Source: Armatimonadota bacterium (lineage in GTDB: Bacteria > Armatimonadota > HRBIN16). Taken from it: a DNA stretch of 64,000 nucleotides. The notes under the pieces were generated by a model, which did no database searches, was not told the origin of the DNA, and saw only the letters and a list, made by a program, of their open reading frames with translations. Below, piece after piece: positions 24,882 to 28,984 of this stretch. Numbering within the stretch: the stretch's first letter is position 1; each line of letters starts with the position of its first letter. The position numbers and the translations under genes are program-made. Location of the stretch: positions 1,344,001-1,408,000 of the forward strand of contig OY781964.1 in assembly GCA_963677485.1 (NCBI GenBank), given 5' to 3'.

Positions 24882-25195
24882 AAGGGCGGTTCTCGAACCG
24901 CCACGACACGCCAGACCGCGCCAGGGATTTGTCTGAACCACGGATTACACGGATGGGATCGGATAGGTTCGGATGGGAAGGGAGGCCAATCAGGAGATTG
25001 GCGTTCCCAGGGGAATTCCCCCTCTGCGTCCTTGCATCCTTGCGCCTTTGCGTTGGTTGATCGCACCTTTCGTGCCGATAACCAAATCTGCGCAATCTGC
25101 GTCATCTGTGGATTTAAATCCCTTGGTGCCTCATGCCATCAGCTACGGAAATGGCCTTTCCTCGACGCAAGAAGGGCGGTTCGCGAACCGCCCCT
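24882..25195. repeat. Mosaic of REP-like hairpins and short-period repeats
   Basis: AAGGGCGGTTC(T/G)CGAACCGCC twice, GCCAATCAGGAGATTGGC, and ACCACGGATTACACGGAT also seen near 35600. Confidence 0.7.
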
Positions 25196-25209
25196 AGTAC
25201 GCTATATAT

Positions 25210-25410
25210 GGTGAGCTCCCCGGACACCAAAAGCAGTCGGGGAGCTAATCTCACCCCTTAGCTGGGGGTGAAGGAGAAGGATTGGATGCCGGAACCGCCC
25301 CTGGTGGAAAACACCGTGACGTAGATAGGCATCCTTCTCCCAATCAACCCATATCGAACAGTATCTTGGGAGAAAACCCCGTGTTCGCTAGGCTGATTTG
25401 GTTGATTGCA
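25210..25410 (+). ncRNA. Predicted IS110 bridge RNA (ends approximate)
   Basis: 5' hairpin plus two stem-closed internal loops whose guide segments match the target and donor junction sequences. Confidence 0.85.
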
Positions 25411-25441
25411 CCATCAATCACTACCAACTGGAGATTACCAC

Positions 25442-26718
25442 ATGCACGAAGTTGAAGACAAAATCTACATCCATTATGTCGGGATCGACATCTCGAAATT
25501 GACGTTTGACGCGTCTGTATTAGGTTCATCGCACAAGCCGATAGACCATAAGGAGTTCAAGAACAACAAGGCCGGATACAAGGAGTTGTTGTCATGGGTG
25601 AAGAAGCTTACCCGAACTCCCGCCTTGTATGCGGCTGAAGCCACCGGGCCTTACAGCCGACCGCTGCTTGATTACCTCTACGAGCACCAGCACGATGCTG
25701 TCCAACTGGAGCCAAAACGGGTTCTCTATCACCGCAAAGCCAAAGGCTGGGAACAAAAGACGGACTGCTCTGACAGCGTGCTAATCGCTGACTATGTGAA
25801 AAGTCACAATGTCTCACTCTATGTCCCTCGTCTAGCATGCTATGATGCGCTTATTGGTTACACCAATGACCGCCGTATGAGGCGATCGCCCAGCGCCAAA
25901 GCTGTCGGCTTACGCGGAGCACAGTGCTGGACGAGATGATCGCTTTTCATGACATGGGCATCAAAAAGCTTGATGTTCAGATCAAAGAGCTTGTGATGAG
26001 TTCACCGCAGATGACCGAAGATATGGCTCTGCTGAAGAGCATTCCGGGTATCGGCGACGTCACAGCAAGCTATTTCCTTGCGAAAATCGGTGATGCTAAA
26101 CGATTTGAAACATCGAAAGCGGTCGCGCGCTATTTCGGAATGAACCCCTGCCCGCAACGGTCAGGAAGCTGCAAGACATACGACGGCTCCATATCCAAGA
26201 TGGGTGACCGATATATGCGGACATTACTCTACTGTGGATCGAGCACTGTGGTGAAGATGGTCAACGGTAAGTCGAAAAAGCTTGGCCAGAGCATGCACGA
26301 CTTCGTGAAGGAACTGCAGCATCCGAATTTGGTAAAGAATCCCAATAAGAAACCGAAGTCCAAGCGAGTTGTCCGGTGCGCAATCATGCGCAAGCAGCTG
26401 GTGCTCATGTGGTCGGTATTAATCAGCCGTCAGCCATATGATCCAAACTTCGGCATCGAACAAGCTTCAAATGCGGCCAACCAGCAACCGCTGACCGACG
26501 CGAACGGACATGTCCAGGATCGTGCCGGAGCGGCCCATGATATAGCCGGTGTAGGCAATGATCCTGGGCTGGACGTGAGCGTTCCAAGACGGGGATGCGT
26601 GGATGGAAATCCCACCAATGAGCCCACTCCTGCCGGCGGTGGTCGGCCCGCATCCCGAAACCGGCCATCGCGCAGTCGGGTGGGCAACAAACCGAGGGTT
26701 CTGACACCAGTATCCTAG
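25442..26718 (+). pseudogene. IS110 recombinase split by a frameshift near 25878
   Basis: Frame 1 has GIDISK, EATG, KTDCSD (DEDD). The -1 frame has SIPGIG, YFGMNP..RSGS, ISKMGD. Confidence 0.85.
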
Positions 26719-27073
26719 CTGCGGCAGTCTGCCGATAGCACGCATCGAAGCATAACGATATCTTTCGAAGCCACGAAGATGTCGCACGTCCGTTCGCGAC
26801 TCCGAGCGTCATGTGAGGTGCTACGGACCAACTGATGCCATCTGAGCCTGTTTCTGTCGCGGATCCAGGTTTGGTCTATATGCCACAAACATCACATTAA
26901 CGTTATTCTACGTGGTCTAGAGCCAGTGTCTGATATTCAGGTCCAAATCCCCAGATTTGCCCCTGGGGACTTGACAAAAGCCACAGTATCTACGAATATA
27001 TGCGGTGAGATCGGGTTTTGGGGGCGATGTGTAGGGGCGTTTCGAGAAACGCCCTTCCCATGCTGCCGACGGT

Positions 27074-28984
27074 TTAGTCTCCCCGCACGGACACAATCCG
27101 AAAGGTGCCGGACTCCACGCTCAGGCTGACCTCGCCGCCCACCAAAGGCATCGCCAGCTCAGGATGCAGCTCATCCTGGCAGCGCAGCGGATTTCGCTCC
27201 GTTATGCCCATCCCACGACGGTGGAAGCTCAAGGCCGTCGTGACCCTGCTGCTGCCCAGATTCGCCACGATGAACAGGGCCCGATGTCCCTTCACCAGAT
27301 AGGCGCTGATCTTGATATTCTCCGTGTTAGAGGAATGGATCAGCTCCTGTGTCTTCCAGTACGGCACCCAGACTGCACCGGTCATCCCGAAAGATCCGAA
27401 GGCTTTCCAGATGTCCGACTGGTGCTCAGGATGCCATATCATCATCACATCGTAGAGTATGGCCAGACTGCGCGCCCGTTCGCGTTCGACCGCATTTCCA
27501 GATATCGGCAATTGGGTGGCGGGTATACCGAAGTTGTGCCCGTGCATCTCTGCACGGAACACATCCTCAGGGTATTCGGGAGTGCCCAGCTTCATCATCG
27601 ACAGCAGATGCTCGCCATCAACGTAGAAATCTGCGAACGAGAGGGCAGGCAGTAGCACGCTAGCCGAGGTGTGGCAGAACAAGATGCCTGGCTTTGCTTG
27701 ATCCTTGACCAGACGATACAGCCCCTTCATCAGCTCCCGCGTGCGCCAGATGGCCATCGTGGGGTGGATTGTGCCATCTTTGCCCCGATACCCGCAACCG
27801 TGCCGGGTGTTAACACACGGCAACGGACAGCTCAAACCGTCGGTGTAAATGCCCCCAAAGCCGTATTCGGCGACTGCCGCGGTGTATTGCTTCAACAGCA
27901 GCTCGGGATAGGGCGTGGCGTTACACACGATACGGCAGATGTCCTGGTTGTCGGGCCTTTGGTACTGGTAGTGATCGCCTATCGGCAGAGAATCCCATCG
28001 GCTCGAATATTCTGGCGATCGAGTGGACATATAGCACCCGGTATAGGGCACAAGCCGCATCCCCTTGGCTCTACAGGCCGCAATCAATGTCCGCAGCTCT
28101 TGAGGGTCTTTCGGCCTGGGCAGGCTCTGCTGGTCGGACCAAGACTCGTGAAACCCCAGATAGTTCACGCCCAGACCAGCCAGCACGTCCAGATAGGCGG
28201 GTTGAGTGGCAGGATCAGGGCTCTTCTCGATGCCGTATCCGCCCATATGGCAATAGCGCATTTGGTAGTAGTCGGCGGGCCACGGCTTCACCGGGGTGGC
28301 CATAAACCCAAAGCACCACTCCCAGTCACCGGTCAACCGATGACGGCTCAGCAGGTTCATCCTGAGGGTCGTCACATTGCAGTCTGGTAGCACCGTGATG
28401 GCACTCTCTGGGTCAGCAGGCGACCAGGGTTCATCGCTTTCGGAAAAGAACTGGATTCCCCTGTCGTCACTGCCCAGCCAAAGATGGTGAACAAACGGCA
28501 GCTTCATCCCCTCAGGCTTGACCGCACCGGCGTTGATGCGCTTTTTGGGCCAGTCCCACACATGAGTCGGGTAGACGGAAGCATGATGGAAATACGAGGC
28601 GTCGCTCCGCTTCAGAGGAATCACCAGATCCAGCGAATCCAGGCTGAGCTCTTTGCCTGCCGAGAGTTTCATGTCGATCCTGGTCATACCATCAAATTCG
28701 GTGGTGATTCGGCAGGTAACGGACAGCTCACGGCTGCTAGCATGGGTCACATACTGCACTGACTCCCTGTCGGAGCTCATTTCTTTGAATTTGATGTTGC
28801 TCCACCGCAGCCTCTTTCCAGCGGTGATGGCGACCAACTGCATCGGCCCAGCAAGGATGTTCTTCTTCTGCGAGATGACTTTCGCCGGAAGCAGCGACAG
28901 GTTGTAGTCGTAAACCCGCCCCCAGCAGTGAACCGACTGCCCCCGTATGACAGGGATGCTCCACGGTGAGATCGTTGCTGCCAT
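27074..28984 (-). CDS. Putative glycoside hydrolase-like protein (DUF6067-like)
   Basis: GGIYTDG, EFDGM and ATPVKP motifs; lies in the carbohydrate gene cluster. Confidence 0.55.
   Translation of the reverse strand: MAATISPWSIPVIRGQSVHCWGRVYDYNLSLLPAKVISQKKNILAGPMQLVAITAGKRLRWSNIKFKEMSSDRESVQYVTHASSRELSVTCRITTEFDGMTRIDMKLSAGKELSLDSLDLVIPLKRSDASYFHHASVYPTHVWDWPKKRINAGAVKPEGMKLPFVHHLWLGSDDRGIQFFSESDEPWSPADPESAITVLPDCNVTTLRMNLLSRHRLTGDWEWCFGFMATPVKPWPADYYQMRYCHMGGYGIEKSPDPATQPAYLDVLAGLGVNYLGFHESWSDQQSLPRPKDPQELRTLIAACRAKGMRLVPYTGCYMSTRSPEYSSRWDSLPIGDHYQYQRPDNQDICRIVCNATPYPELLLKQYTAAVAEYGFGGIYTDGLSCPLPCVNTRHGCGYRGKDGTIHPTMAIWRTRELMKGLYRLVKDQAKPGILFCHTSASVLLPALSFADFYVDGEHLLSMMKLGTPEYPEDVFRAEMHGHNFGIPATQLPISGNAVERERARSLAILYDVMMIWHPEHQSDIWKAFGSFGMTGAVWVPYWKTQELIHSSNTENIKISAYLVKGHRALFIVANLGSSRVTTALSFHRRGMGITERNPLRCQDELHPELAMPLVGGEVSLSVESGTFRIVSVRGD

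What the first reader, a model, noticed from the sequence alone, without database searches (positions are those of the whole stretch)
25210..25410. Bispecific bridge RNA in the IS110 left end, with guides matching both target and donor
Seen directly: (1) 5' hairpin AGCTCCCCG...CGGGGAGCT at 25214-25246. (2) A loop closed by GGATGCC/GGCATCC (25284-25290, 25328-25334) with inner hairpin GGTG-gaaaa-CACC. Its left strand GAACCGCCCCT (25292-25302) is identical to the genomic left flank plus core (25185-25195). Its right strand CGTAG (25320-25324) is the reverse complement of core plus right flank CTACG (26990-26994). (3) A loop closed by CAATCAACC/GGTTGATTG (25341-25349, 25400-25408). Its left strand ACAGTATCT (25358-25366) equals the element's right end (26983-26991). 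Its right strand GCTAG (25387-25391) pairs with CTAGT at the left junction, with one G-T wobble. Knowledge: this is the architecture of IS110 bridge RNAs, which guide programmable recombination. The donor ACAGTATCTAGTAC is close to the IS621 donor as I recall it (ACAGTATCTTGTAT). Inference: a divergent natural ortholog with a new target specificity.
Basis: partly seen in the sequence, partly recalled or inferred. Interest (0 to 1): 0.95.

Follow-up and report, generated by a model that had tools for sequence, protein, structure and literature searches.

The report
Bridge RNA of an IS110 element
The flagged stretch is very likely a genuine bridge RNA gene in the left end of an IS110-family insertion sequence, a known kind of RNA-guided mobile element, and here it steers insertion next to a repeated DNA hairpin.

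Summary
The element (window 25196-26991) has 12 near-identical copies in this genome. Ten carry an intact 430-aa IS110 recombinase. The window copy and one other share a 16-bp frameshifting deletion.

All 12 copies sit directly 3' of a GC-rich hairpin repeat ending in CCCCT. The first loop's 5' strand repeats that flank and its 3' strand pairs with core plus AC(G). The second loop's strands match the element's own ends. Mononucleotide shuffles of the left end reached the 11-nt match 0 of 20,000 times and the 9-nt match 22 of 20,000.

Four related elements (B-E) keep the RNA scaffold but change the target guide in step with their own flanks. A covariance model built without the window sequence finds 25210-25411 at 101.9 bits. 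The circle junction would create TTGACA-17-TACGCT.

Verdict: a real bridge RNA with a natural target specificity of its own, and a new member of a known kind. RNA expression and recombination were not shown. Interest is modest.

The parts
25174..25193 (+). GC-rich hairpin of a repeated (REP-like) sequence. Stems GGGCGGTT / AACCGCCC with loop CGCG. Its 3' arm is the left target.
   Evidence: Read. Hairpins of this type precede all 12 copies. 33 unoccupied sites fit A-N-CGCCCCT-A[CT].
25187..25195 (+). Left target ACCGCCCCT, including the core CT at 25194-25195.
   Evidence: Identical to the loop strand at 25294-25302. Match to the guide is 9/9 at 6 sites, 8/9 at 5 sites and 6/9 at 1 site, of 12.
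25196..25441 (+). Non-coding left end of the element.
   Evidence: Boundary from 12 copies. Identical in all 12 copies.
25198..25203 (+). Predicted -10 box TACGCT of the promoter that is completed only at the circle junction.
   Evidence: Junction scan gives TTGACA-17-TACGCT, 9 of 12. The best site in the integrated context is 7 of 12.
25210..25411 (+). Bridge RNA gene, about 200 nt.
   Evidence: Model R1, built from elements B-E only, matches full length at 101.9 bits, E 7.8e-26. Fold z = -4.6.
25214..25246 (+). 5' stem-loop.
   Evidence: Compensatory changes against elements B-E.
25251..25271 (+). Second small stem-loop, TCACCCC / GGGGTGA. The three-helix description of the IS621 RNA does not mention such a helix.
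   Evidence: IS621 layout from PMC11208160 section 6.
25273..25340 (+). Target-binding loop module. Left target guide at 25292-25302 (core-inclusive 9 nt at 25294-25302). Right target guide CGTAG at 25320-25324. Handshake position A at 25325.
   Evidence: Handshake rule from PMC11208158 section 11.
25341..25408 (+). Donor-binding loop module. Left donor guide ACAGTATCT at 25358-25366. Right donor guide GCTAG at 25387-25391. Handshake position G at 25392.
25442..26718 (+). IS110 recombinase gene, broken in this copy by a 16-bp deletion after 25879. The ORF fragments are 25442-25939 and 25924-26718.
   Evidence: Pfam DEDD_Tnp_IS110 and Transposase_20. Deletion seen and table 4. Intact 430-aa form in 10 other copies.
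26719..26991 (+). Non-coding right end. Its last 30 nt or so are conserved in elements A-E.
26971..26976 (+). -35 box TTGACA, 15 nt before the element end. Invariant in elements A-E.
26983..26991 (+). Left donor ACAGTATCT, including the core CT at 26990-26991.
26992..26994 (+). Right target ACG.
   Evidence: The right flank starts AC at 11 of 12 sites and AT at 1. The third base is G at 4 of 12.

Best explanation
Window 25196-26991 is one copy of an IS110-group insertion sequence. Its left end encodes a bridge RNA of about 200 nt (25210-25411).

Proposed mechanism, by analogy with IS621:
1. The element leaves its site as a circle.
2. Joining the right end to the left end places the right-end TTGACA 17 nt from the left-end TACGCT, which switches on transcription of the bridge RNA from about 25210.
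3. The RNA binds the DEDD/serine recombinase.
4. The first internal loop pairs with both strands of the target. The target is the 3' arm of a GC-rich hairpin repeat, ACCGCCC, then the core CT, then AC(G).
5. The second internal loop pairs with the circle junction, ACAGTAT-CT-AGTAC.
6. Recombination at the CT core inserts the element directly after the hairpin.

This copy's recombinase is frameshifted, but its RNA and ends are intact. It can therefore only move with recombinase supplied by the 10 intact copies.

Shown here: the element boundaries, the guide-flank matches, the covariation, the conserved RNA structure, the catalytic residues and the junction promoter motif.

Inferred: transcription, RNA-protein binding, and recombination.
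For: 1. Recombinase. PF01548 and PF02371 are both present. The IS621 structure chain 8wt6_A matches at E 2.5e-28. D16, E66, D108, D111 and S246-G247 align to the IS621 DEDD and serine residues. The numbering offset of +2 in that chain is my inference.

2. Copies. There are 12 copies, differing at six single-base positions plus the 16-bp deletion. The bridge RNA region is identical in all of them.

3. Target. 12 of 12 left flanks end in CCCCT and 11 of 12 in CGCCCCT. The 9-nt guide matches the flank 9/9 at 6 sites, 8/9 at 5 and 6/9 at 1. 11 of 12 right flanks start with AC.

4. Occupancy. Among hairpin sites of the form A-N-CGCCCCT-A[CT], sites matching the guide perfectly are 6 occupied and 3 empty. 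One-mismatch sites are 4 occupied and 30 empty. Fisher p = 0.002. The sites are not independent, so this is indicative only.

5. Covariation. Elements B (own genome), C (same-genus genome, 9 copies), D and E (metagenome contigs) share a 95%-identical RNA scaffold. They differ in 6 of 11 columns of the left-guide strand and 0 of 31 columns of the loop's stems. Each guide matches its own flanks at a mean of 8.0-8.7 of 9. Non-cognate guides average 5.2-6.4. The right donor guide also covaries: GCTAG with left end AGTAC in A, and TACAAG with left end TGTAT in B-E.

6. Structure. Model R1, built without the window sequence, hits 25210-25411 at 101.9 bits. Model R2 finds matches directly upstream of the recombinase gene in distant relatives (22-29% protein identity): L112, L023, L024, L026, L100, L099 and L053, with weak hits in L019 and L022. 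On that alignment 91% of cells pair and 44 of 51 pairs show changes on both sides, while slid controls reach at most 47.6%. The alignment was fitted to the model, so it leans towards the structure.

7. Junction promoter. TTGACA-17-TACGCT scores 9 of 12, against 7 of 12 at best in the integrated context. The TTGACA is invariant in A-E.

8. Handshake positions. A25325 can pair with donor position 7 (T). G25392 can pair with target position 7 (C). This is the pattern described for IS621 positions 81 and 166.
Against: - There is no direct evidence of the RNA. All four runs laid were contigs. The RNA-library contigs belong to a relative that differs at about 5% of positions, and such contigs do not prove transcription.
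- No circle-junction joint was seen.
- Rfam 15 gave no match at E <= 1. I cannot tell whether Rfam holds a bridge RNA model.
- This copy's recombinase is broken.
- The right target guide is short. Its third target position pairs at only 4 of 12 sites.
- One site matches the left guide at only 6 of 9 positions.
- The register of the left guide relative to the inner stem differs by 1 nt between A and B-E.
- The right donor guide needs a G-T wobble.
- In the distant L023/L024 elements the guide matches the flank at only 7 and 5 of 9 positions by eye, and I could not place their core.
Confidence: 0.93

Rival explanations
1. The structured left end is only a 5' leader of the recombinase mRNA, controlling translation or stability. 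Its resemblance to the flanks and ends would be coincidence or a by-product of insertion.
For: The region lies directly upstream of the ORF, with GGAG 8 nt before the ATG at 25442. No RNA ends were measured.
Against: The matches are beyond chance: 0 of 20,000 and 22 of 20,000 shuffles. They lie on the 5' and 3' strands of two internal loops, as in IS621. The flank is host DNA that differs between elements A-E, and the loop strand changes with it while the stems stay fixed.
Confidence: 0.03
2. The RNA gene is a fossil. The family is no longer active in this genome, and the guide-flank matches record past activity only.
For: The window copy and one other are frameshifted. Both copies of element B are damaged: stops inside the match, and an IS21-type insertion in one. 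No circle junction was seen in contigs.
Against: The 12 copies differ at only six single-base positions, and 10 have an open 430-aa frame with all catalytic residues. This points to recent spread. The same 16-bp deletion sits at two loci with unrelated flanks. That needs either movement of a defective copy in trans or gene conversion.
Confidence: 0.1
3. It is an IS1111-type element or seekRNA arrangement, with the guide RNA in the right end, so the left-end structure would not be the guide.
For: The right end is long, at 273 nt against 246 nt for the left end. Durrant et al. report the left end as the longer one in the IS110 group (PMC11208160 section 12).
Against: Both guide pairs lie in the left end. 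Between A and B-E the right end is conserved mainly in its last 30 nt or so, plus a few short subterminal blocks and a hairpin. The covariance models hit only upstream of the gene.
Confidence: 0.01

Closest known systems
IS621 bridge RNA and recombinase of Escherichia coli (Durrant et al. 2024, PMC11208160; Hiraizumi et al. 2024, PMC11208158)
   Same: - The guide RNA is encoded in the left end.
- It has a 5' stem-loop followed by a target-binding loop and a donor-binding loop.
- The 5' loop strands equal the top strand of the left target or left donor, core included. [quoted passage not shown]
- The core is CT.
- The right target begins AC. The IS621 wild-type target is given as ATCAGGCCTAC (Extended Data figure legend among the passages). 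Here it is ACCGCCCCTAC.
- The left donor ACAGTAT-CT is the same. Elements B-E have the full 14-nt IS621 donor.
- The insertion site lies in a palindromic repeat.
- The promoter spans the circle junction.
- DEDD and Ser-Gly catalytic residues are present.
   Different: - The recombinase is distant: 102.7 bits over residues 10-274. It is 430 aa against 326 aa, with a C-terminal extension of about 90 aa.
- There is an extra stem-loop at 25251-25271, and the RNA is about 200 nt against 177 nt.
- The right donor is AGTAC instead of TGTAT.
- The target hairpin family is different.
- No DNA similarity to any E. coli genome was found.
ISPpu10 of Pseudomonas putida (bioRxiv 10.64898/2026.03.19.712850; abstract read)
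   Same: All insertions lie beside a GC-rich stem-loop 5' of the paired target. Here every one of the 12 A sites carries hairpin-forming sequence ending just before the core, and so do most C sites.
   Different: I did not test whether the hairpin itself is read by the recombinase here. In one C copy (L014) I saw no such hairpin; it lies in different sequence.
ISCro4 transposase (PDB 9t56)
   Same: Second solved relative, E 5e-26 over residues 10-277.
   Different: Equally distant. I did not compare its RNA.
IS1111-group elements and seekRNA
   Same: Same recombinase family and the same logic of dual guides (PMC11208160 section 12).
   Different: In those elements the guide RNA is in the right end. 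Here it is in the left end.

Membership tests
IS110-group insertion sequence | Recombinase with a RuvC-like DEDD domain (PF01548) and a Tnp domain (PF02371) carrying the conserved serine | tested here: met
   D16, E66, D108, D111 and S246 in the intact copies. This copy is frameshifted after residue 146 or so.
IS110-group insertion sequence | No long terminal inverted repeats, and insertion at a specific site flanked by a CT core at both junctions | tested here: met
   12 of 12 copies have ...CCCCT|element...ATCT|A. I ran no dedicated inverted-repeat search on the ends.
IS110 bridge RNA | Encoded in the non-coding left end, with a 5' stem-loop and two stem-loops that carry internal loops | tested here: met
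   One extra small hairpin is present.
IS110 bridge RNA | First loop: the 5' strand equals left target plus core, and the 3' strand is complementary to core plus right target | tested here: met
   Across 12 sites the left guide matches at a mean of 8.3 of 9. The right guide pairs with CT+AC at 11 of 12.
IS110 bridge RNA | Second loop: its strands match left donor plus core and core plus right donor at the circle junction | tested here: met
   9 of 9 for the left donor guide. 5 of 5 for the right donor guide, with one G-T wobble.
IS110 bridge RNA | Guides covary with target and donor across orthologues | tested here: met
   Elements A-E. Among distant relatives L026 matches 9/9, L023 7/9 and L024 5/9.
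IS110 bridge RNA | [quoted passage not shown] | tested here: met
   TTGACA-17-TACGCT. Motif only; no transcription data.
IS110 bridge RNA | The RNA is made, binds the recombinase and is required for recombination | not testable with these tools
   Only contigs were available.
IS110 bridge RNA | Match to a curated RNA family model | tested here: inconclusive
   No Rfam 15 match at E <= 1. Whether Rfam holds such a family is unknown to me.

The most novel reading that the evidence does not exclude
Elements A-E may form a rare, separate IS110 clade.

- Only seven protein clusters at 41% identity or more turned up in the large protein collection.
- The recombinases are longer, at 400-433 aa, and A-type proteins carry a C-terminal extension.
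- The bridge RNA has four helices.
- Elements B-E keep the IS621 donor while retargeting quickly from one species-specific hairpin repeat to another.
- The clade may be able to move recombinase-dead copies in trans.

If active, it would be a bridge recombinase orthogonal to IS621/ISCro4, with a natural series of reprogrammed target loops and possibly hairpin-gated targeting.
Probability: 0.4. Interest if true: 0.45.

Novelty: new member of a known kind. Interest (0 to 1): 0.3.

Why it matters
This is a clean natural example of bridge-RNA targeting. One genome holds 12 insertion sites, a pool of unoccupied sites graded by mismatch, and a second related element. A sister genome and two metagenome contigs hold scaffold-identical RNAs with different target guides. 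Together these show natural reprogramming of the target loop and a preference for perfectly matched sites, without any experiment.

As a distant relative of IS621 and ISCro4, it could add an orthogonal enzyme-RNA pair to the bridge-recombinase toolbox.

It opens no new mechanism. The architecture, the target logic and even the left donor are those already described.

Tried and rejected
- **Rfam scan** of 24900-27300 at E <= 1: nothing found.
- **blastn of the left end against E. coli genomes**, to fetch IS621 for a direct RNA comparison: no match.
- **A Pectobacterium IS110 locus (L022) as a stepping stone:** it found E. coli IS110 transposase genes, but none named IS621 and the best was a fragment. 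I therefore did not align the window RNA to the IS621 RNA itself. The comparison with IS621 rests on the papers' descriptions and on the PDB protein match.
- **Sequencing runs:** all four runs laid were contigs.
  - They show the intact 16-nt form in an 1820-nt contig. Its summed depth is 117 against about 9-10 for flank contigs in X1, and 154 against about 8-15 in X3.
  - There was no circle-junction joint and no information on RNA ends.
  - Contigs from RNA libraries X15 and X16 carry a relative that differs at about 5% of aligned positions. Its listed differences in the RNA include 25292 G>T, 25313 A>G, 25317 T>A, 25320 C>T and 25373 A>C.
  - The change at 25320 would turn the right guide into one pairing with CTACA. 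One X16 loose end gives a right flank of ACA. The link between the two contigs is unproven, 12 differences were not shown, and presence in an RNA library does not prove transcription.
They say nothing about habitat.
- **Extended right guide:** the bases 5' of CGTAG do not pair with the right flanks in A-E.
- **Pairing between the 5' part of the left guide and the 3' loop strand:** possible in B and E but not in A, C or D. I dropped the idea.
- **Distant loci:** L112, L100, L019 and L022 have too little upstream sequence to test guide against flank. L053 and L099 showed no convincing match.
- **Close relatives:** DNA around the closest protein relatives P0001-P0005 (61-95% identity) could not be fetched.
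- **Paper supplements** are closed. The orthologue tables of PMC11208160 may already list this element or its relatives, and I could not check.

Full report
**Observation.** GAACCGCCCCT (25292-25302) equals the flank 25185-25195. CGTAG (25320-25324) is complementary to CTACG (26990-26994). ACAGTATCT (25358-25366) equals 26983-26991. GCTAG (25387-25391) pairs with CTAGT (25194-25198) with one G-T wobble. In 20,000 mononucleotide shuffles of the 246-nt left end, the 11-nt match never appeared and the 9-nt match appeared 22 times. The RNA folds with z = -4.6.

**The element.** The two ORF fragments after the structure carry PF01548 and PF02371. The element occurs 12 times in the window's genome. 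The copies differ at six single-base positions and by a 16-bp deletion after window 25879. That deletion is shared by the window copy and the copy at 1871159-1872954, and it breaks the frame. The other 10 copies have an open 430-aa frame. The intact protein matches the IS621 transposase structures (8wt6 and others, E 2.5e-28) and ISCro4 (9t56). D16, E66, D108, D111 and S246-G247 align to the IS621 catalytic residues. Residue roles come from PMC11208158 sections 6 and 10, and the +2 chain offset is my inference. The nearest proteins in the large collection are 95, 84, 83, 68 and 61% identical, then 41-42%, then 30% or less. The lineage is therefore sparsely sampled and far from IS621.

**Target.**
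- The 12 copies fix the boundaries. The left flanks all end in CCCCT (11 of 12 in CGCCCCT), which is the 3' arm of a GC-rich hairpin repeat followed by the core CT.
- The right flanks begin AC at 11 of 12 sites and AT at 1. The third base is G at 4 of 12.
- The core-inclusive 9-nt left guide matches 9/9 at 6 sites, 8/9 at 5 and 6/9 at 1.
- The genome holds 33 unoccupied sites of the form A-N-CGCCCCT-A[CT]. Sites matching the guide perfectly are 6 occupied and 3 empty. Sites with one mismatch at position 2 are 4 occupied and 30 empty (Fisher p = 0.002). These sites belong to repeat families and are not independent.
- Strand logic follows the IS621 rule: 5' loop strand identical to the top strand, 3' loop strand complementary to it, both covering the core (PMC11208160 sections 6 and 7).

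**Covariation.**
- A second element (B) lies at 1296596-1298385 of the same genome. A second copy of it is split by an IS21-type insertion.
- Element C has 9 copies in a same-genus genome.
- Elements D and E lie on metagenome contigs.
- The RNAs of B-E are 95% identical. Their variable columns are concentrated in the left-guide strand (6 of 11), the right-guide strand (4 of 11) and the 5' hairpin loop (9 of 17), with 0 of 31 in the stems of the target loop.
- Each left guide matches its own flanks: B 9 and 7 of 9; C 9/9 at 6 sites and 8/9 at 3; D 8; E 8. Non-cognate guides average 5.2-6.4.
- The C guide GGGTCATCCCT equals the 11-nt flank of a different hairpin repeat.
- The right donor guide also changes with the left end: GCTAG with AGTAC in A, TACAAG with TGTAT in B-E.
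- The B-E donor equals the 14-nt IS621 donor as printed in the methods of PMC13396178.

**Structure.**
- A covariance model built from B-E alone matches window 25210-25411 full length at 101.9 bits.
- A second model including A finds full-length matches directly upstream of the recombinase gene in distant relatives (22-29% protein identity): L112, L023, L024, L026, L100 (cut at the contig end), L099 and L053. Hits in L019 and L022 are weak.
- On that 15-row alignment 91% of cells pair, 44 of 51 pairs change on both sides, and slid controls reach at most 47.6%. The alignment is fitted to the model, so it leans towards the structure.
- The layout is a 5' stem-loop, a small extra stem-loop (25251-25271), the target loop module (25273-25340) and the donor loop module (25341-25408).

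**Expression signals.** Joining the right end to the left end gives TTGACA, 17 nt, TACGCT (9 of 12). The integrated left junction offers at best 7 of 12, and the linear scan found no + strand promoter. TTGACA is invariant in A-E, and by eye B-E have TATGCT as the -10. A start about 7 nt after the -10 falls at about 25210, where the model match begins. This mirrors the junction promoter described for IS621. Transcription itself was not observed.

**Handshake positions.** The base after the right target guide (A25325) can pair with donor position 7 (T). The base after the right donor guide (G25392) can pair with target position 7 (C). This is as described for IS621 positions 81 and 166.

**Reads.** Contigs of two DNA-like runs carry the element as an 1820-nt contig in the intact 16-nt form. 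No circle junction was listed. RNA-library contigs carry a relative differing at about 5% of positions, and four of its five listed differences within the RNA lie in the target loop module. This is no proof of transcription.

**Mechanism and status of this copy.** The most likely reading is an IS621-like cycle of circle formation, junction-driven bridge RNA, dual pairing and recombination at CT. This copy cannot make recombinase. Its deletion is shared by a second locus with unrelated flanks. That suggests either movement of a defective copy with recombinase supplied in trans or gene conversion. I cannot tell which.

**Comparison and verdict.**
- It works like IS621 and meets every sequence-level membership criterion of the IS110 bridge RNA class.
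- It differs by a longer recombinase, an extra RNA hairpin, the right donor AGTAC and a hairpin target of its own.
- Targeting next to a GC-rich stem-loop recalls ISPpu10 (abstract read). REP targeting by IS621 is noted in PMC11208160.
- The kind is known and widely predicted: 85.7% of ISfinder IS110-group elements.
- This is a new member of a known kind. Confidence that it is a bridge RNA is 0.93.

Noticed in passing
own genome (G000:C1) near 264919 (+), 1990837 (+), 2010706 (+), 3436712 (-), 2382964 (-): Five sites have a hairpin ending in CCCCT followed by AGTACGC, the first 7 nt of the element's left end, and then unrelated sequence with no element. They lie in repeat-rich intergenic DNA. 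They could be natural variants of the repeat or something else. Precise excision would not leave this.
   Followed up: partly
window 26992-27010 compared with 25199-25215: The right flank of this copy (ACGAATATATGCGGTGAG) resembles the left-end start (ACGCTATATATGGTGAG). The other 11 copies have unrelated right flanks. This may be the remnant of an older left end, or chance.
   Followed up: no
own genome 2667671-2672044 (L151): The second copy of related element B is split by an insertion of about 2.56 kb. The insertion encodes a 519-aa transposase (rve, Mu-transpos_C_2) and a 255-aa IstB_IS21 ATPase, so it is an IS21-type element.
   Followed up: yes
L003:1747-3036, residues about 340-430 of the intact recombinase: There is a low-complexity C-terminal extension of about 90 aa, absent from the 326-aa IS621. 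Invariant columns reach residue 406 in the 8-protein alignment. In elements B and C the match runs through a stop codon.
   Followed up: no
window 25173-25195 and genome-wide: The 9-mer CGCCCCTAC occurs 228 times against 58 expected from base composition. This reflects a large family of hairpin repeats, AGGGCG(A/G)TTCGCGAA(T/C)CGCCCCT, which serves as the landing pad.
   Followed up: partly
window 27030-27057: Another hairpin of the same style, GGGGCGTTTCGAGAAACGCCCT, lies about 40 nt downstream of this copy. Repeats therefore cluster here.
   Followed up: no
L023, L024, L026 (Prolixibacter-like genomes): These are distant IS110 elements whose model-aligned left guide tracks the flank: L026 9/9, L023 7/9, L024 5/9. 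I could not place their core dinucleotide cleanly.
   Followed up: partly
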